Below, piece by piece: positions 1,751-32,883 of a stretch of 64,000 bases of DNA. Origin of the DNA: Spirochaetia bacterium (lineage in GTDB: Bacteria > Spirochaetota > Spirochaetia > SZUA-6 > Bin103); assembly GCA_965208575.1 (NCBI GenBank), contig CBDBOV010000005.1:192001-256000 (forward strand). Reading direction: 5' to 3'. The notes beneath the pieces are model-generated. The model saw nothing but the letters and a program-made list of their open reading frames with translations. It did not search any database and was not told the origin of the DNA. The number at the start of each line of letters is the position of its first letter. Position 1 is the stretch's first letter. A program made the translations under genes and the position numbers.

Positions 1751-3535
1751 TTAATAACCCATTTCTTTCTTCAGATCACTATCAATCCAGAGGCGGGCGA
1801 AGAGGAGATTAAAACCGAGAGGGTCCAAGCCTGTGTCCATTTCACCGTTATAGCCTATGAGCCACGGCTGGGCCAAATAATACACTGCAGGTTTACCGCC
1901 CCATATCTGCCAGTGCTTCTCTATCATGTACATATCTGCCTCTGCAATCAGCCTCTGCTGCTCCTCAATGGTAGTAGCGTTTAGGGCGGCGTCAACCATG
2001 GCGTCCACCTCAGGCCACCGGGATCCGGGGCGGTTCCACACTGCATCCGAGTGAAACCAGCCTACCATCATGACAGGGTCATAAAGATTGCCCATATTGG
2101 TTTGGTGCAAGCCTTCCCAAGTACGCGAGAATACCCTCTCGTTATGTACGTCATAGGGAACTGCATCAATCTCAACATCGACGCCAATCTCTGCCCACTG
2201 GGAGACAATTATTTCAGTAATGTCCGTATTTCCAACCGAGACATTCACGGAGGTCTTAAATCTAGTGCCGTCGGCGCCGCGCGGGTATCCAGCCTCATCA
2301 AGGAGCTTCTCGGCAGCTTCCGGGTCATAGGTATAGTATTGCTTGACCTCGTCGGGCCACTCATCAAACGGGATGTAATACCCTTTCACCCCTATTAGCC
2401 CGTGAGGTGTAGTATCTGCATAACCCCTCCAGTACGTAGCCTTAATGGGCTCAAGGTCCAGTGCCATCTGCATTGCGCGGCGCACGTTGATGTCGTCAAA
2501 GGGCGGCACGCCCAAGGTAGGAGCAAAAGAACTACCCGACCGAAACCAAACCGGCCATGCCGCGATTTCGGGGTTGGTCCGCTGCAGGCTCAGTACCGAT
2601 GCCAATTGGTTCTCGACCCACCGTCTGTAATCAATCTTGCCTGTCCGCATCGCTGACATGATTGTTGCTTCCTCTGGAATCATCAGTCCCCTTAACTTGT
2701 CAACGTAGGGCAGGCGGTTCTGCGGGTATTTTTCGTCGTAGCCCCAGTAGTCAGGATTCTTGGTCCAGGTCGCAGAGCTGTCCGCGACGTAGTCAGTCAG
2801 CTCAAAGGGCCCGGTGCCGACCACGTTCCTCCAGTCCTTCATGTCACCGTATTGCTCGATTACCTCGGGGGGGGATATGTAAATAAAGTAGTCGACGAGC
2901 ATAAGCCGCAGCGCAGGGAGGTATGGCTTCGTCAGCTTAACGACCATCGTATGCTTGTCGGTGGCCGTTACCGATTCCCATGGTATGGAGACGAATGGGG
3001 CGGCGCCACCCACGGGGGAAGGTCCGGCGTCGGCAAACTTGCCCATACCCAATAGACGGTGAAAGTTGTATTCGACATCATCGGCAGTGAGCTCCCGACC
3101 GTTCATCGGTGCCTTATTATGCCAGTGAACGCCCTGGCGGATGTGGAAGGTATAGGTGCGCCCGTCCGGGGAAATATCCCAGCTTTCCGCCAGTTGCTCT
3201 ATCATGACCGACTCAGGGGTCGGGCCCGATTTAAAGTCCCATACGTCCCTATCTATTCCCCAGTTCCCGATACCTAGCTTCTCTACGACGCCCGAGATTA
3301 TCCCGCCCGAATAGTGGTAATAGGGGTCTGCCGCCTGTGGCGAATATGGGTGTAAGTGCAAGGTTAATGTCCCGCCATACTGTGGCGCAACCACCATCTT
3401 GCCGGTGGTCGGGTCGAGCACCATTTCCTTCTCCACGGCGGCTGCCGGCTCCTCTTCTGCGCCCGCGGCCCAGAGGCCGGTGGCAGTCAGGGTCAGGACC
3501 AACGCAACCGCGAAGGTCTTTATCACAATGTTCAT
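1751..3535 (-). CDS. ABC substrate-binding protein, family 5 (Dpp/Opp/Nik)
   Basis: Signal peptide MNIVIKTFAVALVLTLTATGLWA; motifs PQYGGTL, LAESW, VGTGPF, VRRAMQMALD, LLDEAGY; GGAG SD before ATG 3535. Confidence 0.93.
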   Translation of the reverse strand: MNIVIKTFAVALVLTLTATGLWAAGAEEEPAAAVEKEMVLDPTTGKMVVAPQYGGTLTLHLHPYSPQAADPYYHYSGGIISGVVEKLGIGNWGIDRDVWDFKSGPTPESVMIEQLAESWDISPDGRTYTFHIRQGVHWHNKAPMNGRELTADDVEYNFHRLLGMGKFADAGPSPVGGAAPFVSIPWESVTATDKHTMVVKLTKPYLPALRLMLVDYFIYISPPEVIEQYGDMKDWRNVVGTGPFELTDYVADSSATWTKNPDYWGYDEKYPQNRLPYVDKLRGLMIPEEATIMSAMRTGKIDYRRWVENQLASVLSLQRTNPEIAAWPVWFRSGSSFAPTLGVPPFDDINVRRAMQMALDLEPIKATYWRGYADTTPHGLIGVKGYYIPFDEWPDEVKQYYTYDPEAAEKLLDEAGYPRGADGTRFKTSVNVSVGNTDITEIIVSQWAEIGVDVEIDAVPYDVHNERVFSRTWEGLHQTNMGNLYDPVMMVGWFHSDAVWNRPGSRWPEVDAMVDAALNATTIEEQQRLIAEADMYMIEKHWQIWGGKPAVYYLAQPWLIGYNGEMDTGLDPLGFNLLFARLWIDSDLKKEMGY

Positions 3536-3539
3536 AACT

Positions 3540-3985
3540 ATCTCCAGGATGATTGATTTCGAGAGTCTTGCGGAGCGGGTTGCCGCTCCCCGGATCCTCT
3601 CGCGCCCGCAACGCGGGCGGCCGGTGTGAGTCAGATTCCTGCAGCGTGCGGCGTGTGACTCACCGGGTTCACCCGGGCTCACGCCGCGCGCGCGTGAGGT
3701 TCTTTGAGTATCATTCGAGCCTCCTTCTTCTCGTTACAACGCGACGCGTTGCGGTGGTCTGAGCAGCAGCGAGTCTGAATGGCCGGCAACGCTGGGGGTG
3801 TCGCCGGCGGGGATCCGGGACGGCCTGAGTCGCCGGGAAGGGCACGGGCGGCCCGGCGATCGACCGAGCCCGCGCCACCGATAGCTACGGCGGTGGTGAA
3901 GGCGACCGCGTGCGCGGGGTCGCGTACGGGGCGATCAGCCGGAGCGGTTAGTTGTTCTCGGTTCGAAAGTTGAGGGGGGGCGAGG
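3540..3985 (-). ncRNA. Candidate structured cis-regulatory leader RNA (copy 1)
   Basis: Homologous to 28592-28985 with compensatory changes in several stems. Confidence 0.65.
3679..3714 (-). CDS. Putative leader peptide MILKEPHARAA (copy 1)
   Basis: AAGGAGG-5 nt-ATG; identical peptide at 28822-28857. Confidence 0.6.
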   Translation of the reverse strand: MILKEPHARAA

Positions 3986-4077
3986 ATAGGACGCGCCGGC
4001 TGCGTTGCCGCTAACCGATGGCAGTGCTGAGTGGTATTATCACCCATCTTTTGCATCCGTTGAACCCTGAGGTTTTC

Positions 4078-27405: not shown

Positions 27406-28035
27406 TCAGCCGCCTTGAGGGCTACTCTCGGGCATCACGCCGGCGGTGCGCAGGGCTTGTTGCAGGGTGTTGGTGTCGCGGAAGAGGTGGGCTTGGAAGC
27501 CGAAGGCGGCTGCGCCGGCGACGTTGTCAGGGCGGTCGTCGACGAAAAACACTTGTTCGGGGGAGCAGCCGCAGCGGCGCAGGGCATGCTCGTAGAAGCA
27601 GGCGGAGGGCTTGGGGCAGCCGATGGCCGAGGAGTTGACGATGAAGTCGAACGCGGCGGCGATGCGCAGGCGGGAGAGGTCGTCGGCCAGCCTGGTCGTG
27701 GCGTTGGAGACCAGACCGAGCGGGACGGCGGAGCGCGCGGACTGCAGCACAGCCAGGGTACCGGTGTGCACCTCGCCGGCGCCCATCGACCATTGCGCTA
27801 CCGCGGCGGCAGAGGCCGCGGGATCGAACCGGGTGCCGAGCCGTGCGGCGATCCGCTTGCGCCACTCGGCGTCCGTTACGACTCCGGTAATCGCGTCGGT
27901 CAGGAGCGTCTCGTGGAACGCCGCGCGCGCCATACTGCCTCGTGGCAACCCGTGCGCGTCTTCGACCGATGAGAATTGCGTAGCCGGCCAGCGGCGAACC
28001 ACGCCGTCCAGATCGGTCAGCACCGCCCGAATCAT
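27406..28035 (-). CDS. HAD-superfamily hydrolase
   Basis: DLDGV, SN, KP, FVDD motifs. Confidence 0.9.
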   Translation of the reverse strand: MIRAVLTDLDGVVRRWPATQFSSVEDAHGLPRGSMARAAFHETLLTDAITGVVTDAEWRKRIAARLGTRFDPAASAAAVAQWSMGAGEVHTGTLAVLQSARSAVPLGLVSNATTRLADDLSRLRIAAAFDFIVNSSAIGCPKPSACFYEHALRRCGCSPEQVFFVDDRPDNVAGAAAFGFQAHLFRDTNTLQQALRTAGVMPESSPQGG

Positions 28036-28388
28036 TGCGGCGCCGCGAACGCCGGGCCGAGGTCGGCGACACCCAGCGCCGTGACATTATCGGCGAGGTC
28101 GTAGCGGTTCGCGGGGGTGCCGATGACCAGGTGGCGTCCGGGCTTCCACGGCAGGTTGCTGGCGGCGAGTTCCCGCGAGACGGCGTGGATGGTTCGCGCG
28201 TCGTCGTTGCGGGGGTGTTCCTGCCACTTCGCCTCGATGAAGGACAGGCGGCCGCCGCTGTCGATGACGAAATCGATCTCGCGAGAGCGCTGGTCGCGGT
28301 AGAACCACAGGGTGGCCGGCTCGTCCTGCAGCGAGACCAGCTTGCGCAGCTCGGCGAACACGAACGTCTCCCACAGTGCTCCGAGCAT
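28032..28388 (-). pseudogene. C-terminal DUF4143 fragment of an AAA_14 ATPase
   Basis: GALWETFVFAEL...FYRD...EIDFVI...IEAK; ATPase domain absent. Confidence 0.75.
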
Positions 28389-28473
28389 CTTGCGAATAAT
28401 CTAGTCTCGCAAGTTAGATTTGTCACCCTTCGTCGGTGATCGATTACGGGAGCGTGGGTAGCTCTCCGGGTCG

Positions 28474-28503
28474 TTGACACGGTGGCCGCACTCATGGCAG
28501 GCT
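28474..28503 (+). promoter_or_regulatory. Putative promoter of the leader/SBP operon
   Basis: TTGACA-18 nt-CAGGCT with TG; same layout and spacer GCCGCA as 4078-4107; weak -10. Confidence 0.4.
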
Positions 28504-28591
28504 CGCGTCGCTTGGGGTTCGACAGATCGATGATGAAGCGCCGTGACGACAGCCAGCGCAGTGACCGGTCGGCGGTGACGCAGCCGGTGTA

Positions 28592-28985
28592 CCCCCCGCC
28601 CCCCCCCCCGCAACTCTTTATACGAGAAACAACTAACCGCTTGGGCTGATCGCGCCCTACGCGAGCCCGCGCACACTGTCACCTTCACCACCGCCGTGAC
28701 TATCGGTGGCGCCGGCTCGGTCGATCGCCAGACCTCCCGCCAGGAGAAACCCACCGCCGGCATTGCCGGCCATTCAAACTCGCCGCTTCGCCGGCCACCG
28801 CCCCGCGTGGCGGAGGTGAGGATGATACTCAAAGAACCGCACGCGCGCGCGGCGTGAGCCCGTGAGTCACACGCCGCGCGCTTCACAAATTGACTCAGAC
28901 TGGCCGTCCGCGTTGCGGGCGTCAGAGTAGCCAGGGAGCGCCAATGCGCTACGCAATACTCTCAAAATCTACATACGGAGCTACT
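28592..28985 (+). ncRNA. Candidate structured cis-regulatory leader RNA (copy 2)
   Basis: Homologous to 3540-3985 (minus) with compensatory changes. Confidence 0.65.
28822..28857 (+). CDS. Putative leader peptide MILKEPHARAA (copy 2)
   Basis: GGAGG-5 nt-ATG; one synonymous difference from copy 1. Confidence 0.6.
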   Translation: MILKEPHARAA

Positions 28986-30809
28986 ATGGATATGAACATT
29001 GTAGTAATTCGAATGGCCCTTGGGGTTGCGTTGGTCTTGGTCTTGACCGCAACCGGCCTCTGGGCCGCCGGTGCAGAGGACAGCGCCGAGCCGGCAGCAG
29101 CCGCTGCCGACAGAGAGACGGTGTTCGACCCCGCCAGCGGCCTGACGTGGACCGCGCCAGAGTATGGCGGGTCACTCTCGTGGGCCCACAAGCAGTTTCC
29201 CAAGAGTACTGACCCGCACGTGGTCGGTGGCTGGGGGCCGCACTTCATCAGTGGCGTCAATGAGAAGCTGGCCTACGGCGACTGGGCAGTATCCAGGGAC
29301 AAGGTGGTTGAACTAGCCTGGACGTATTCGGGCCCGGAGATGTACAGAGGGGCTCTGGCTGAAAGCTGGGAATTCCCCGACGCCACAACCGTCATCTTCC
29401 ACATCCGCCAGGGCGTCCACTGGCATGACAAGGCGCCGATGAACGGTCGCGAGCTGACTGCCGATGATGTGGTATTCAACTGGCACCGCTATTTGGGCCT
29501 GGGCGAGTTCGCCGAAGCGGGACCTTCCGCCCTGGGATACATGACTCACGGTCTCGAGGAAGCATCGGTGACGGCCACCGACAAGTGGACGGTCGAGTTC
29601 AAGCTGGCGAGGCCCAAACCCGATATCGAGTTTGCAGTGACCCACAATGCAAACTATATATTGGCCCCCGAGGTAATCAAGGAACACGGAGACTATGCGG
29701 ATTGGCGGAACGTGGTCGGCACCGGGCCCTATCGACTGACCGATCACGTCGAGGACACCTCGGCAACCTGGGAGAAGAATCCCGACTACTGGGGCTACGA
29801 CGAAAAATTTCCGGACAACCGCTTGCCCTATATTGACACCTTGAAGTCCCTCCTTATAGCAGACACGTCAGCACGTCTGGCGGCAATGCGCACGGGCAAG
29901 ATTGACATGATAAGTAACACCGGAGACGCTCATATATCCAATATCGAGCATATAGAGAGCCTCCAGAATACCAATCCTGAAATCGAAGCCTGGCCCGTTT
30001 ATCGCCCTCCATTGGGCACTTATATGTTTGACCAGTCTCAGGCGGTGATACAGGATGTCAATGTGCGCAAGGCGCTGCAGCTATCGCAGGACCGCGAGAC
30101 AATTTCGGCTACCTTCTTCAAGGGTTGGGGAGAGCCAGCACCTAACGGGTTCATAAGCCAAGCTTCTACAGGGTTTAGCTGGCCATATGAAGACTGGCCC
30201 GAAGACGTAAAGCGTGAGTATGAGTATGACCCGGAAAGGGCGGAAGCGTTGCTTGATGCGGCTGGATATCCACGCGGCGACGACGGCTATAGATTCACGA
30301 TCAAGGTAGGCCATTTCGGGAGGTACGAATCGGACTATACAGAAATCATCATGGGGTACTTCGACGCCATTGGCGTAAAAAGCGAGATGGTTGTGGTTAC
30401 TGACCCTGAGCTGCAACCCATCATCCAGGCGGACACGTCCGAGTTCGCGTTGATTAGCTGGGTGGGATATCCGCTAACGGCCCCCAACACGTATGTCTAC
30501 TATATAAGCAACTTCGACTATGGTGGGGTTGACTGGAGCAGGGCGAAGGATCCGGAAATGGACGCCCTGCTGGCCGGCATGAAAAATGCCACCGAACCGG
30601 ACGAGTGGAAGAAATATCACCGACAGATCGATGAGAAAACGGTACGGGAGCACTGGGGCCTGGTGCGAGCCAACTCCCCGATATTTGCCGTGAGCCAGCC
30701 GTGGGTCGAGGGTTATGCCGGTGAATGGAGCCTGGGATACTCTGAACGTAATACCCACTTTGCCCGCCTCTGGATCGATAGTGCGCTGAAGGAGTCAATG
30801 GGTCATTAG
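28986..30809 (+). CDS. ABC substrate-binding protein, family 5
   Basis: GGAG SD, signal peptide ...TATGLWA, APEYGG, VVGTGPY, ARLWIDS. Confidence 0.93.
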   Translation: MDMNIVVIRMALGVALVLVLTATGLWAAGAEDSAEPAAAAADRETVFDPASGLTWTAPEYGGSLSWAHKQFPKSTDPHVVGGWGPHFISGVNEKLAYGDWAVSRDKVVELAWTYSGPEMYRGALAESWEFPDATTVIFHIRQGVHWHDKAPMNGRELTADDVVFNWHRYLGLGEFAEAGPSALGYMTHGLEEASVTATDKWTVEFKLARPKPDIEFAVTHNANYILAPEVIKEHGDYADWRNVVGTGPYRLTDHVEDTSATWEKNPDYWGYDEKFPDNRLPYIDTLKSLLIADTSARLAAMRTGKIDMISNTGDAHISNIEHIESLQNTNPEIEAWPVYRPPLGTYMFDQSQAVIQDVNVRKALQLSQDRETISATFFKGWGEPAPNGFISQASTGFSWPYEDWPEDVKREYEYDPERAEALLDAAGYPRGDDGYRFTIKVGHFGRYESDYTEIIMGYFDAIGVKSEMVVVTDPELQPIIQADTSEFALISWVGYPLTAPNTYVYYISNFDYGGVDWSRAKDPEMDALLAGMKNATEPDEWKKYHRQIDEKTVREHWGLVRANSPIFAVSQPWVEGYAGEWSLGYSERNTHFARLWIDSALKESMGH

Positions 30810-30904: not shown

Positions 30905-31915
30905 ATCAGAGCCTACCTTATCCGGCGATTGTTGCTGATATTCCCCACCCTGTTCATATTGAGCATCGTAGTCTTTCTCTCGGTCCGCTTCATCCCCGGT
31001 GATGTAATAGACGTAATGGTGGCCCAGATGGGAGGATGGTGGGCCGTGGGTGGCGACATAGACCGCGAAGCTCTCGAGCGCAGGCTGGGATTGGACGTGC
31101 CTGTGTACGTACAGTACGGACGCTGGATAGGAGTGTTGCCAACCCCTGACTGGATTACCGGTGAGTCCCACTTTGAAGGTCTCCTCCAGGGCACCCTTGG
31201 CGAACCACTGATTGGCGGTTTCTCTACGATAGACGAGATGATAGTAAGCAGATTGCCGGTAACCATTGAACTTGGCGTCATGGCAATCGTAATCGGGCTG
31301 GTGATAGCCCTGCCGGTCGGCATCTACTCGGCGATTCGCCAGGATACGGCGACCGACTACGTAGGCCGCACCGTCGCCGTAATCGGCCTGGCAACGCCAA
31401 ACTTCTGGCTGGGAATCATGGTCATGCTCTACCCGGCAATCTGGTGGGGCTGGTCGCCGTCGATGGAATATATCCCGCTTGGCGAAGATCCGCTGGGGAA
31501 TCTGGGGATGACCATCATTCCTGCGGTGATTCTGGGAACGGGGATGTCTGCAGCCACCATGCGGATGACGCGCACGATGATGTTGGAGGAGCTCAGGCAG
31601 GACTACGTCAGGACGGCATGGTCCAAGGGTATCAAGGAAAGGGTGATCGTGATCAGACACGTCATCAAGAATGCATTCATCCCGATTCTCACCCTGATAG
31701 GCCTGCAGTTCCCGCTCCTGATAGGTGGCGCCGTCATCATGGAGAACATCTTCAACCTTCCGGGGATAGGCCGTCTGTTCATGGATGCCCTCGAAGGAAG
31801 AGACTACCCGGTAGTGTCCGCAATAAACCTGGTCTTTGCTACCATAGTCATGCTTAGCATTGTACTTATCGACATGATCTATCCCTATGTGGATCCCAGG
31901 ATCCGCTACCAGTGA
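30905..31915 (+). CDS. Dpp/Opp ABC permease, DppB family; probable ATC start
   Basis: GAGGAG-6 nt-ATC AGA GCC TAC CTT ATC CGG CGA (xRAYLIRR); EAA motif; DPRIRY. Confidence 0.9.
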   Translation: MRAYLIRRLLLIFPTLFILSIVVFLSVRFIPGDVIDVMVAQMGGWWAVGGDIDREALERRLGLDVPVYVQYGRWIGVLPTPDWITGESHFEGLLQGTLGEPLIGGFSTIDEMIVSRLPVTIELGVMAIVIGLVIALPVGIYSAIRQDTATDYVGRTVAVIGLATPNFWLGIMVMLYPAIWWGWSPSMEYIPLGEDPLGNLGMTIIPAVILGTGMSAATMRMTRTMMLEELRQDYVRTAWSKGIKERVIVIRHVIKNAFIPILTLIGLQFPLLIGGAVIMENIFNLPGIGRLFMDALEGRDYPVVSAINLVFATIVMLSIVLIDMIYPYVDPRIRYQ

Positions 31916-32883
31916 TGCCACCGGTACGCACCGCGAGAGTGAGTGGGCCCAGGAGCAGTGGCGCGGTGGCTGTTTTCTTTATCAGGCTGTGGCGCGAGAA
32001 GCCACTGGGTATGGCCAGCGGAATTGTCATATTGATAGTGCTGTTTGTGGCTGTATTCGCGGGTCAATTGGCCCCATACAAGTTTGCCGAGATGAACCTG
32101 ATAGACAGGATGCAGGGCTCATCGTTCCGGCATCCGATGGGTACCGACCAGATGGGACGAGACGTTCTCAGCCGCGTCATATTCGGGGCACGTGTTTCGG
32201 TACTGGTCGGTCTGGCAGTGACCACGCTCAGTGTATTGATCAGTACGCTGGTAGGCGGCATTTCAGGATTCGTTGGTGGTAGATTCGACATCATAGTGCA
32301 GAGAGTTGTCGATGCCTGGATGTGTTTCCCGGGGCTGCTCCTGTTGTTGACCTTGATGTCCATAGTGGGGAAGGGTGTACCGCAGATAATACTGGTGCTC
32401 GGCATAGCAGGGGGTATCGGCGGATCAAGAGTGATCCGAGGCGCCGTCATGAGCATTAAGGAGAATGTGTATTTTCAGACGGCGGAGGCTATTGGAAGCA
32501 AAAAATGGCGATCATTGGTGCGCCATGTCTTGCCCAATATCATGCCTGCGGTAATCATATCATTCAGCACCAGCATAGGGGGCGTAATCATATCCTTGGC
32601 TGCTCTGGGCTTCCTCGGATACGGTCTGCCTCCCACGCTTCCTGACTGGGGAGGTCTGCTCAGCAGGGAAGGACGGGTCTACATGGAGCAGGCGCCATGG
32701 CTGGCTCTCTGGCCCGGTCTTTGTCTGACGGTAACCGTTTACAGTCTGAACATGTTCGGCGACGCGGCACGTGATCTGCTTGATCCGAGGCTGAAGGGCG
32801 GCGCCGGGCAATCCGGTGCCTATGGCACGAAGTCGGTCAAGAAAGCCAGCAAGGAACTGGACGCCGGGATCACGCCGAGGTGA
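31912..32883 (+). CDS. Dpp/Opp ABC permease, DppC family
   Basis: MGTDQMGRD, HVLPNI, GDAARDLLDPR. Confidence 0.92.
   Translation: MMPPVRTARVSGPRSSGAVAVFFIRLWREKPLGMASGIVILIVLFVAVFAGQLAPYKFAEMNLIDRMQGSSFRHPMGTDQMGRDVLSRVIFGARVSVLVGLAVTTLSVLISTLVGGISGFVGGRFDIIVQRVVDAWMCFPGLLLLLTLMSIVGKGVPQIILVLGIAGGIGGSRVIRGAVMSIKENVYFQTAEAIGSKKWRSLVRHVLPNIMPAVIISFSTSIGGVIISLAALGFLGYGLPPTLPDWGGLLSREGRVYMEQAPWLALWPGLCLTVTVYSLNMFGDAARDLLDPRLKGGAGQSGAYGTKSVKKASKELDAGITPR

What the first reader, a model, noticed from the sequence alone, without database searches (positions are those of the whole stretch)
28592..28985. Conserved ~400-nt structured leader RNA upstream of family-5 SBP operons (candidate new riboswitch/attenuator class)
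Seen: the non-coding regions before the SBP genes at 3535(-) and 28986(+) are homologous along ~400 nt although the two proteins are clearly diverged. Stems are kept through substitutions: AGCGG-caac-CCGCT vs AGCGC-caat-GCGCT (G-C to C-G swap); closing helix CGAGAG/CTCTCG vs AGAGTA/TACTCT just before the SD; CGCCCGC-gtt-GCGGGCG vs CGTCCGC-gtt-GCGGGCG (G-U); nested 5' hairpin GGCTGATCG/CGATCGCC, CGA(C/G)CCCGCGC/GCGC(G/C)GGCTCG, CCACCG/CGGTGG. Copy 1 also carries an extra self-contained hairpin (CCGGG-tgaa-CCCGG) inserted in a loop. I do not recognise T-box, cobalamin, TPP, SAM or FMN consensus. Inference: a cis-regulatory RNA controlling an expanded importer family.
Basis: partly seen in the sequence, partly recalled or inferred. 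Interest (0 to 1): 0.85.

Follow-up and report, generated by a model that had tools for sequence, protein, structure and literature searches.

The report
Shared structured leader of transporter genes
About sixty nutrient-uptake genes in this bacterium share one folded RNA leader that begins with a tiny 11-codon reading frame, so the cell probably controls them all through one ribosome-sensing switch.

Summary
Window 28560-28985(+) and 3535-4010(-) align at 83% mean column identity, while the two binding proteins are 44% identical. No Rfam family matches.

Only the last ~175 nt (28812-28985, "M3") is the constant unit. It has 62 sense copies in this genome, nearly all directly before a ~600-aa family-5 SBP gene. 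It occurs in 7 of 10 other genomes of the genus, and in 0 of 30 other genomes of the order and 0 of 150 of the phylum sample.

The fold is P1, a loop-to-downstream helix, P2, P3 and P4. On 84 distinct copies 93.4% of cells pair, and 17 pairs change on both sides against 8.3±1.9 in shuffles.

M3 opens with GGAGG-N6-ATG and an 11-codon upstream ORF (MILKEPHARAA). Its variation is mostly synonymous, and its stop lies at the top of P1. I therefore favour a leader-peptide attenuator over a riboswitch.

Gene conversion of the 5' cassette inflates the conservation. The signal and the output are unknown.

The parts
28476..28591 (+). M0: optional upstream module with a -35-like TTGACA (28474-28479), CGGTGAC repeats and a conserved ~60-nt stretch. 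Probably the promoter region and first transcribed bases.
   Evidence: 42 blastn hits in the genome, up to three in tandem. Alignment of 35 copies. Its possible ORF has no coding signature: entropy by codon position 0.68/0.79/0.72. The simple sigma-70 scan finds no + strand promoter here.
28592..28740 (+). M1: optional module.
   Evidence: 29 blastn hits. 20 copies aligned, 17 predicted pairs, 0 with a change on both sides, uncompensated mismatches in the outer arms. C-rich: GC skew -0.17 to -0.50.
28741..28811 (+). M2: optional module with a GCCGGC-ATT-GCCGGC hairpin. Replaced by other modules in other copies.
   Evidence: 15 blastn hits. Alternative sequences precede M3 in other copies.
28812..28985 (+). 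M3: the constant ~175-nt leader module (window copy 2).
   Evidence: 62 sense matches to model R1 in the genome. Nearly all lie directly before a ~600-aa SBP ORF. Covariation counts.
28812..28816 (+). Upstream Shine-Dalgarno-like GGAGG, 5 nt (GTGAG) before the uORF start in this copy, 6 nt in the consensus.
   Evidence: GGAGG or GAGG in 31 of 52 own copies, GGGG(G) in 6, none in 6, start motif not located in 9.
28822..28857 (+). uORF ATG ATA CTC AAA GAA CCG CAC GCG CGC GCG GCG TGA = MILKEPHARAA*.
   Evidence: ATG/GTG/TTG at the aligned start in 73 of 86 copies (+3 CTG). TGA or TAA at the aligned stop in 76 of 86. 63 of 86 give an 11-residue product. In codons 3-6 there are 47 synonymous against 23 non-synonymous variant cells.
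28845..28881 (+). P1: 12-bp G+C helix, 28845-28856 with 28870-28881. Its 5' arm is uORF codons 8-11 plus TG of the stop. Copy 2 lacks the inner hairpin P1a.
   Evidence: 97.4% of cells paired in 84 distinct copies. The helix is kept across presence or absence of P1a.
28864..28896 (+). Helix GAGTCA (28864-28869, in the 3' side of the P1 loop) with TGACTC (28891-28896): a pseudoknot, or the alternative fold when P1 is open.
   Evidence: 92.6% of cells paired, 2 of 6 pairs with changes on both sides (UA to GC; AU to GC).
28905..28921 (+). P2 hairpin CGTCCGC-GTT-GCGGGCG.
   Evidence: 95% paired, 4 of 7 pairs with double changes, 31 and 29 U-G cells that would be C-A on the other strand.
28924..28962 (+). 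P3 closing helix (28924-28929 with 28957-28962) around P4 (AGCGC 28937-28941, GCGCT 28946-28950).
   Evidence: P3 94% paired with 4 of 7 pairs double-changed. P4 88.6% paired with 2 of 7. The same closing helix covaries in a second, 17-member leader family.
28977..28980 (+). Shine-Dalgarno GGAG of the SBP gene, after an A/C-rich linker.
   Evidence: Read and aligned. Unpaired in the MFE fold.
28986..30809 (+). Family-5 solute-binding protein gene, followed by two permease genes (30929-31915, 31912-32883).
   Evidence: PF00496 E 1.1e-64. PF00528 E 9.9e-37 and 7.1e-25.
3536..3724 (-). M3, window copy 1: SD 3724-3720; uORF 3714-3679 (MILKEPHARAA*, Pro codon CCT instead of CCG); P1 3691-3680 with 3655-3644; P1a CCGGG-TGAA-CCCGG 3676-3663; GAGTCA 3661-3656 with TGACTC 3633-3628; P2 3619-3603; P3 3602-3597 with 3565-3560; P4 3587-3574; SD 3545-3542.
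   Evidence: Read. R1 match at 179 bits (place G000:C5:195540-195715).
1751..3535 (-). Family-5 SBP gene behind copy 1.
   Evidence: PF00496 E 4.7e-69.

Best explanation
Window 28812-28985 is one copy of a genus-specific, sense-strand, structured 5' leader module. It sits directly before the start codon of about half of this genome's more than 120 family-5 SBP genes. It consists of a Shine-Dalgarno sequence and an 11-codon upstream ORF (MILKEPHARAA). The ORF's last codons and stop form the 5' arm of a 12-bp G+C hairpin (P1). A 6-bp helix then links the P1 loop to a downstream segment. Next come hairpin P2, a closing helix P3 around hairpin P4, an A/C-rich linker, and the SBP gene's own ribosome-binding site. 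I think it works as a leader-peptide (ribosome-sensing) attenuator. A ribosome translating or pausing on the uORF must melt P1. That frees the P1 3' arm and the GAGUCA segment to refold with downstream sequence, and so sets the stability, Rho access or translation of the SBP operon mRNA. Because all ~60 copies carry the same module, they would answer to one signal. Shown here: the element, its copy number, position, strand, fold, the coding-like pattern of the uORF, and its spread by duplication and gene conversion as part of a 5' cassette (promoter-proximal modules, leader, signal peptide). Inferred: that the uORF is translated, that P1 melting is the switch, what the signal is, and what the output is.
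For: Copies and context: 62 sense R1 matches in the genome. Of 61 blastn hits to M3, nearly all have a ~560-635-aa SBP ORF starting 150-200 nt after the module start. The SBP is PF00496, with permeases downstream. Structure: on 51 distinct own copies 91.1% of cells pair, and 15 pairs change on both sides against 7.1±2.0 in shuffles (1 of 500); slid controls pair 31-58%. On 84 distinct copies from 9 genomes or records 93.4% pair, 17 pairs against 8.3±1.9 (0 of 500), and 55 double-changed cells against 14.2±3.3. Strand: 31, 29 and 26 U-G/G-U cells at three pairs would be mismatches on the other strand. An inner hairpin P1a comes and goes without disturbing P1, as expected for RNA and not for a DNA-binding site. 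P3 covaries independently in a second leader family: 5 of its 8 pairs, and 10 of 19 pairs overall against 1-5 when slid. uORF: starts are ATG 58, GTG 10, TTG 5, CTG 3 of 86. The stop is kept in 76 of 86. Entropy by codon position is 0.27/0.28/0.69 in codons 2-6. Variants include CTC/CTG, AAA/AAG, GAA/GAG and CCG/CCA/CCT/CCC. The two window copies differ by CCG vs CCT. A related SD-like GGAGGTG followed by a start-stop or 3-codon ORF is seen in the type C leaders. Transcription: contigs of four RNA libraries from two studies carry many leader-like pieces at 80-95% likeness. Constraint: orthologue leaders at 88-97% protein identity are only 77-87% alike, close to the paralogue median of 81-85%. 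So variable sites saturate fast while the rest stays fixed.
Against: No expression platform was found. There is no + strand intrinsic terminator in 28380-29000. The SBP's SD is open in the MFE fold. Its predicted exposure barely changes when the uORF plus 12 nt is forced single-stranded: mean 0.40 vs 0.43 in the 38 of 52 copies that passed the script's filters. 10 of 86 copies lack any NTG start, and 15 of 52 show no SD-like motif or could not be placed. The coding signature rests on only 4-5 codons, and the cells counted are not independent events. The MFE z-scores are weak (-1.40 and -0.89). Helix P1 hardly varies, with 1 of 12 pairs double-changed. Gene conversion means many copies are recent copies of each other, so both conservation and covariation counts overstate the evidence. 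RNA contigs cannot show a TSS, a strand or translation, and DNA may be present in those libraries.
Confidence: 0.42

Rival explanations
1. Metabolite- or ion-binding riboswitch. The P1/pseudoknot and P3/P4 domains would form an aptamer for a general nutritional signal that sets expression of all these importers. The uORF-like frame would be a by-product of conserved aptamer nucleotides.
For: Multi-helix fold with a loop-to-downstream helix, and highly conserved unpaired nucleotides. 5' UTR position before transporter genes. No known family matches, so a new class is possible.
Against: Found in one genus only: 0 of 30 other genomes of the order and 0 of 150 of the phylum sample. It sits before ~60 paralogues whose mature parts have a median identity of 48%, which presumably bind different solutes. 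No terminator or SD-sequestering platform was found. The 3-nt periodic, mostly synonymous variation, the NTG start and the kept stop are not expected of aptamer nucleotides.
Confidence: 0.15
2. Landing pad for a trans-acting factor. A lineage-specific RNA-binding protein or small RNA would recognise the conserved loops or the A/C-rich linker and control the whole SBP regulon after transcription.
For: Very high primary-sequence conservation of both stems and loops within one genus. An A/C-rich single-stranded linker lies between P3 and the SD. From recall, not tested here: family-5 SBP mRNAs are controlled through such linkers by the sRNA GcvB in enterobacteria.
Against: No second locus carries extended complementarity to the conserved 15-nt 5' segment. 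At up to 2 mismatches there were 50 hits, of which 2 lay outside the blast-defined leaders. One of those is itself a leader found by R1, and the other lies in an unrelated stretch that does not look like a leader. No candidate protein was sought. This reading does not explain the uORF pattern.
Confidence: 0.2
3. No switch at all. The module would be a constitutive stabilising or translation-enhancing 5' UTR that travels with its promoter and signal peptide. It would look conserved mainly because the 5' cassette is repeatedly copied between paralogues by gene conversion.
For: Leader identity does not track mature-protein identity (Spearman -0.07 over 861 pairs). Two pairs are 96-100% identical over 400-600 nt across leader and signal peptide, then fall to 46-78%. 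Third-codon-position entropy is 0.69 in the signal-peptide codons against 1.17 just after them. Leader presence needs 26 changes on the SBP tree. The SD is open by default.
Against: Conversion alone does not produce compensatory changes, sense-strand-only G-U pairs, or a frame-aware substitution pattern. Between species, variable sites have diverged while the core is fixed.
Confidence: 0.16
4. DNA-level element: operator or promoter sequences for a shared transcription factor, or a REP/MITE-like repeat.
For: P1 and the TGAGTCA...TGACTCA pair are inverted repeats. GATACT resembles a -10 hexamer (seen; the consensus is from recall). The upstream modules are repeat-like and sometimes tandem.
Against: Orientation and distance to the SBP start are fixed. 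The spacing between the P1 arms varies by 11-30 nt through P1a and other loop insertions. G-U pairs occur on one strand only. RNA-library contigs run on upstream of 28812 into unlike sequence, so the element is not at the very 5' end of those molecules (weak).
Confidence: 0.07

Closest known systems
Leader-peptide attenuators (trp/his/leu operon leaders; ermC and cat translational attenuation; tnaC, mgtL, speFL). Named from recall, not fetched.
   Same: [quoted passage not shown] A ribosome on the ORF therefore decides the fold. The peptide core (LKEP) is conserved through synonymous change.
   Different: There is no run of regulatory codons, no U-tract terminator and no visible SD sequestration. 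The main start codon lies ~130 nt beyond the uORF stop, with three further helices between them. There are ~60 copies per genome.
Riboswitches before ABC-importer SBP genes (Rfam families such as TPP, cobalamin, glycine, ykkC).
   Same: A structured 5' UTR with several helices and a possible pseudoknot lies before a binding-protein gene.
   Different: No Rfam 15 family matches at the gathering score, and the best E-value in permissive mode is 1.1. The element is restricted to one genus and carries a uORF.
GcvB-controlled 5' UTRs of dppA/oppA (family-5 SBPs) in enterobacteria. From recall.
   Same: Many peptide or amino-acid SBP mRNAs are controlled as one regulon through their 5' UTRs, and an A/C-rich stretch lies just before the SD.
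   Different: No sRNA partner was found here. The element is a large fold, not a short linear target.
Multigene families with a conserved 5' UTR and signal peptide kept alike by recombination (for example the variable lipoprotein families of mycoplasmas). From recall.
   Same: Promoter-proximal region, leader and signal peptide are near-identical across paralogues whose mature parts are divergent, with sharp conversion-tract ends.
   Different: These are transporter binding proteins with permease genes behind them, dispersed over all six contigs, each with its own leader. Nothing suggests switching of a single expression site.

Membership tests
Any Rfam 15 family | Match to the family covariance model at its gathering score | tested here: not met
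   0 matches on the whole window. In permissive mode on 28400-29050 there were 6 matches, all with E >= 1.1 and 9-18 bits against gathering scores of 42-70.
Riboswitch | Conserved aptamer fold supported by covariation | tested here: met
   17 of 44 pairs change on both sides against 8.3±1.9 in shuffles, and 93.4% of cells pair. The alignment was fitted to the model, and many copies are related by gene conversion.
Riboswitch | Expression platform (terminator or SD/AUG sequestering helix that competes with the aptamer) | tested here: not met
   No + strand terminator-like site. The SD is unpaired in the MFE fold. No conserved anti-SD pairing was seen.
Riboswitch | Direct binding of a small ligand | not testable with these tools
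   Needs in-line probing, ITC or similar.
Leader-peptide attenuator | Short ORF with its own SD and start codon, conserved in position | tested here: met
   NTG start in 73 of 86 copies (+3 CTG). Stop kept in 76 of 86. GGAGG or GAGG upstream in 31 of 52, GGGG in 6.
Leader-peptide attenuator | Substitution pattern of a translated frame | tested here: met
   Codons 2-6 have entropy 0.27/0.28/0.69 by position. In codons 3-6 there are 47 synonymous against 23 non-synonymous variant cells. This rests on few codons and non-independent copies.
Leader-peptide attenuator | ORF overlaps one arm of mutually exclusive RNA structures | tested here: inconclusive
   The overlap with the 5' arm of P1 is shown. 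The GAGUCA:UGACUC helix could be the alternative fold or a pseudoknot, with 2 of 6 pairs double-changed. Constrained folds gave no common alternative.
Leader-peptide attenuator | Downstream terminator or masked start site that the switch controls | tested here: not met
   Control through Rho or RNA decay was not testable.
REP/BIME/MITE-like intergenic repeat | Scattered in intergenic DNA in either orientation, without a fixed relation to a gene start | tested here: not met
   M3 copies lie on the gene's strand at a fixed distance before SBP starts. The upstream modules M0-M2 are more repeat-like.

The most novel reading that the evidence does not exclude
The 11-residue nascent peptide (core LKEP), together with the P1/pseudoknot RNA, is a new kind of ribosome-arrest sensor. 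It would place ~60 nutrient-uptake operons, the cell's main interface with its surroundings, under one metabolite or translation-status signal. A gene-conversion-maintained 5' cassette would keep the whole regulon tuned to that sensor.
Probability: 0.18. Interest if true: 0.8.

Novelty: new variant of a known kind. Interest (0 to 1): 0.58.

Why it matters
If the reading is right, a single small switch governs dozens of importer operons in one uncultured lineage. Few bacterial regulons are wired through one repeated cis element at this scale. The element also offers a clean natural data set for studying how a leader peptide and an RNA fold co-evolve: more than 60 copies per genome in several species. 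It shows as well how gene conversion keeps a regulon uniform.

For context, one metaproteome of a marine sponge lists peptide/nickel SBPs (K02035) as the most frequently detected bacterial protein function (PMC6081418, Tables 2 and 3, seen as passages). Whether this organism lives in such a setting was not established here.

The case is also a caution for scans. Conservation between paralogous leaders may reflect cassette exchange, and 'unpaired conserved' stretches may be small ORFs.

Tried and rejected
1. Known RNA families. Rfam gave nothing at the gathering score on the whole window and nothing useful in permissive mode on the region. A T-box likeness seen by eye was not borne out.

2. A second ORF in module M0 (MKRHDDSQRSDRLAVTQPV, then poly-Pro through the poly-C tract). 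It looked conserved but has no coding signature: entropy 0.68/0.79/0.72 by codon position in 30 copies, with one in-frame stop and several copies without ATG. Rejected as a gene.

3. Alternative pairing of the 5' UACUC with the P3 5' arm, and an anti-SD in the P4 3' arm. Checked by eye on A2. Changes do not covary, and about 40% of copies read CUAC instead of CUCC (pair 181-205 is unpaired in 21 of 51). Rejected.

4. Sigma-54 promoter at CTGGC...TTGC. By eye against a recalled consensus the GG-GC spacing is one base too long, and P2 covaries as RNA. Rejected.

5. GATACT as the -10 hexamer of a promoter inside M3. No conserved -35 is seen in 52 upstream stretches, and RNA-library contigs run on upstream of 28812. 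Judged unlikely but not excluded.

6. SD masking. Forcing the uORF plus 12 nt open in the 38 of 52 copies that passed my filters left SD exposure at 0.43 against 0.40. No support.

7. Thermodynamic signal. The MFE z-scores are -1.40 (199 nt) and -0.89 (531 nt). Uninformative in this G+C-rich DNA.

8. Antisense partner. A search for the six conserved motifs and their reverse complements found no sRNA-like locus.

9. Antisense and long 'mechanical' ORFs over the leader (28401-28886(-), 3679-4056(-), 27527-28495(-)). No Pfam family matched.

10. Wider distribution. Two exact-pattern scans of metagenome contigs gave 0 stretches and 4 stretches. R1 shows that none of the 4 is the leader.

11. Nearest SBP relatives. 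The closest relatives of the window's SBP (74% and 72% identity) lie in other, A+T-richer records with no leader.

12. Habitat. Several DNA runs labelled sponge or marine metagenome hold 0.10-0.22 of the sampled words. A part of the stretch without RNA-contig cover (28388-28431) is likewise no finding.

13. Literature. Searches listed nothing on a shared leader of SBP paralogues. I saw listings and abstract starts only, plus passages of PMC6081418 and PMC13285730. The latter concerns upstream ribosome-binding sites in Sinorhizobium and is general background only. Supplements were not seen.

Full report
WHAT IS THERE

The stretch before the SBP gene at 28986(+) and the stretch before the SBP gene at 3535(-) align over about 430 nt. 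Mean column identity is 83%, with three larger indels (sequences). Both genes encode family-5 solute-binding proteins (PF00496, E 1.1e-64 and 4.7e-69). The first is followed by two permease genes. The mature proteins are 43.7% identical.

IT IS A MULTICOPY, MODULAR ELEMENT

I split the upstream region into four modules and counted blastn hits for each:
- M0 (28476-28591): 42 hits
- M1 (28592-28740): 29 hits
- M2 (28741-28811): 15 hits
- M3 (28812-28985): 64 hits

The modules occur in varying combinations. M0 is sometimes present two or three times in tandem. Up to 2 kb can lie between M2 and M3. Other sequences take the place of M1/M2 in many copies. Only M3 is constant.

Of the 61 blastn hits to M3, nearly all lie on the strand of a 560-635-aa ORF and just before it. 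These ORFs share the signal peptide M..TRTFAVALVLVLTATGLWA.

A covariance model built from 52 copies (R1, 176 positions) finds 63 matches in the genome. One of them is a weak antisense echo.

DISTRIBUTION

- R1 matches in 7 of the 10 other genomes of the same genus. Up to 67 matches were scored per genome, which was the scoring cap.
- It matches 0 of 13 genomes of the sister genus and 0 of 17 genomes from other families of the order.
- It matches 0 of 150 further genomes sampled across the phylum. That search used stricter filters.
- Among 80 loci that encode relatives of the window's SBP in public genomes, 12 carry the leader. They come from four records, titled Spirochaetia bacterium (two records), Candidatus Tectimicrobiota bacterium and 'bacterium'.
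- The closest SBP relatives (74% and 72% identity) lie in A+T-richer records without any leader. The leader therefore belongs to the lineage, not to the protein family.
- Two exact-pattern scans of the metagenome collection found no leader.
- No Rfam family matches.

THE FOLD OF M3

Alignment shows five helices:
- P1 is a 12-bp G+C helix (GCGCGCGGCGUG with CACGCCGCGCGC). In most copies it is capped by an inner hairpin P1a (CCGGG-UGAA-CCCGG).
- A 6-bp helix joins GAGUCA, on the 3' side of the P1 loop, to UGACUC about 20 nt downstream.
- P2 is CGCCYGC-GUU-GCGGGCG.
- P3 is the closing helix GAGAGUA with UACUCUC.
- P4 (GGAGCGG-CAAU-CCGCUCC) lies inside P3.

After P3 comes an A/C-rich linker of 12-16 nt, then the SD and the start codon.

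Pair counts on the MAFFT alignment of the genome's own copies (51 distinct):
- 91.1% of cells form standard pairs.
- 15 of 44 pairs change on both sides, against 7.1±2.0 in shuffles (1 of 500 shuffles reach this).
- The covariation score is 0.094, against 0.036-0.044 when the partners are slid.

Pair counts on 84 distinct copies from nine genomes or records, aligned to the model and so leaning towards it:
- 93.4% of cells pair.
- 17 pairs change on both sides, against 8.3±1.9 (0 of 500).
- 55 cells are double-changed, against 14.2±3.3.

Three further points favour RNA of the gene's strand:
- G-U and U-G cells are numerous (31, 29 and 26 at three pairs). They would be C-A mismatches on the other strand.
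- P1a is missing in 12-14 of 51 copies, and other loop insertions occur, without disturbing P1.
- A second, more diverged leader family before 17 other SBP genes keeps the same closing helix, with double changes at 5 of its 8 pairs. Overall 10 of 19 predicted pairs are double-changed there, against 1-5 when slid, and 87.6% of cells pair against 33-50%.

Weak points are that P1 itself hardly varies and that the MFE z-scores are unremarkable.

THE 5' HALF IS NOT SUPPORTED AS STRUCTURE

In 20 aligned copies of M1 the inner hairpin CCACCG/CGGUGG is conserved, but no predicted pair changes on both sides. The outer arms carry uncompensated mismatches.

AN UPSTREAM ORF

The conserved 'single-stranded' start of M3 reads GGAGG-N6-ATG ATA CTC AAA GAA CCG CAC GCG CGC GCG GCG TGA. 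That is a Shine-Dalgarno sequence at ideal spacing and an 11-codon frame, MILKEPHARAA.

In 86 copies:
- The aligned start is ATG in 58, GTG in 10, TTG in 5 and CTG in 3. Only its first base varies.
- The aligned stop is TGA in 74 and TAA in 2.
- 63 copies give an 11-residue product.
- In codons 2-6 the entropy by codon position is 0.27/0.28/0.69.
- Leu is CTC 65, CTG 8, CTT 1, CTA 1.
- Lys is AAA 74, AAG 10.
- Glu is GAA 66, GAG 13.
- Pro is CCG 65, CCA 7, CCT 5, CCC 2.
- In codons 3-6 this makes 47 synonymous against 23 non-synonymous variant cells. Nine of the latter are one Leu-to-Arg change.

The two window copies differ by CCG against CCT. GGAGG or GAGG precedes the start in 31 of 52 own copies.

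Codons 8-11 and the TG of the stop are the 5' arm of P1. There the variation follows the helix rather than the frame (0.46/0.28/0.25).

The type C leaders carry an SD-like GGAGGTG followed by a start-stop or a 3-codon ORF at a comparable place.

This is the layout of a leader-peptide attenuator, because a ribosome on the uORF must open P1. The evidence rests on few codons and on copies that are not independent, so I call it suggestive.

WHAT I COULD NOT FIND

No output device was found:
- There is no intrinsic terminator on the + strand.
- The SBP's SD is open in the MFE fold.
- Forcing the uORF region single-stranded does not change its predicted exposure (0.40 against 0.43, in 38 of 52 copies).
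- No antisense partner for the conserved segments exists elsewhere in the genome.

The M1-M2 region is C-rich (GC skew down to -0.50). This would suit a Rho entry site, but that is conjecture.

TRANSCRIPTION

Contigs of four RNA libraries from two studies hold hundreds of pieces that match the leader at 80-95% likeness. Summed depth over 28828-28959 is as high as over conserved coding parts. Some contigs run on upstream of 28812 into unlike sequence. Contigs cannot show a start, a strand or a level, and DNA may be present in such libraries. This is therefore only a weak sign that the leader is part of transcripts.

HOW THE COPIES EVOLVE

The genome holds at least 133 PF00496 matches. Of 123 long SBP frames found by phmmer, 53 were flagged as leader-bearing by blastn. 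That is an undercount, since at least three 'non' rows carry the leader-type signal peptide.

On an SBP tree the leader needs 26 gains or losses, at least 22 of them forced by well-supported branches. The shuffled mean is 40. M3 goes with one signal-peptide type. Other SBP classes have other signal peptides and their own conserved leaders.

Several results point to gene conversion:
- Leader identity does not track mature-protein identity (Spearman -0.07, 861 pairs).
- One pair of copies is 98-100% identical from 227 nt before M3 to 370 nt after its start, then 46-67% identical.
- Another pair is 96-100% identical over 400 nt, then about 75%.
- Third codon positions of the signal peptide are unusually constant (0.69 against 1.17 just downstream).

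So the whole 5' cassette (promoter-proximal modules, leader, signal peptide) is exchanged among paralogues by gene conversion.

Selection acts as well. Between species, clear orthologues (88-97% protein identity) have leaders only 77-87% alike, about the same as any two paralogues (medians 81-85%). The free positions therefore saturate quickly while the core stays fixed.

VERDICT

It is shorter and more modular than described, and part of its conservation is concerted evolution. Its best-supported mechanism is a leader-peptide attenuator rather than a riboswitch.

I put 0.42 on that reading. The rest is shared among a trans-factor site (0.20), a passive UTR kept alike by conversion (0.16), a true riboswitch (0.15) and a DNA-level element (0.07).

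It is a new variant of a known kind. It is interesting for its scale (about 60 operons on one switch) and for the interplay of uORF, RNA fold and gene conversion. It is limited by its narrow host range and by the missing output mechanism.

Noticed in passing
window 28592-28610 and the same joint in other copies (alignment): The poly-C tract between M0 and M1 varies from about 7 to more than 20 C among copies. A homopolymer of this kind in a leader could vary by slippage, or could reflect assembly error.
   Followed up: no
window 28440-28591; genome copies listed: Module M0 carries TTGACA, repeated CGGTGAC heptads on both sides of it, and a conserved 60-nt stretch. It occurs up to three times in tandem before some SBP genes, which suggests a shared promoter or operator region.
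   Followed up: partly
G000, whole genome: At least 133 family-5 SBP matches in a 6.5-Mb genome. They fall into classes with different signal peptides, each with its own conserved upstream region. Upstream families have 80, 17 and 6 members out of 123.
   Followed up: partly
G000 C4:508866-509075 vs C4:524498-524707 and flanks: A tract of about 600 nt is 98-100% identical across leader, signal peptide and the first ~60 codons of two SBP genes that are otherwise 46-67% identical. This is a recent conversion or cassette exchange.
   Followed up: yes
window 28970-29010 and the aligned copies: The SBP start codon lies in GUAUG. That can pair either with an upstream CAUAC (leaving the SD in the loop) or with a downstream (U/C)GUAC in codons 4-5, so a local two-state hairpin at the start site is possible. 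This was not quantified.
   Followed up: no
window 3679-4056 (-): A 125-aa open frame runs through M0-M2 of copy 1 and ends at the uORF's stop in the same frame. It has no Pfam match and is probably a by-product of G+C-rich DNA.
   Followed up: partly
window 27527-28390 (-): A divergently oriented ORF lies upstream of copy 2, with a promoter-like site on the - strand at 28426-28398. It has no Pfam family.
   Followed up: no
L113 and L114: The nearest relatives of the window's SBP (74% and 72% identity) lie in records with much lower G+C upstream regions. This suggests transfer of SBP genes between unrelated bacteria.
   Followed up: no
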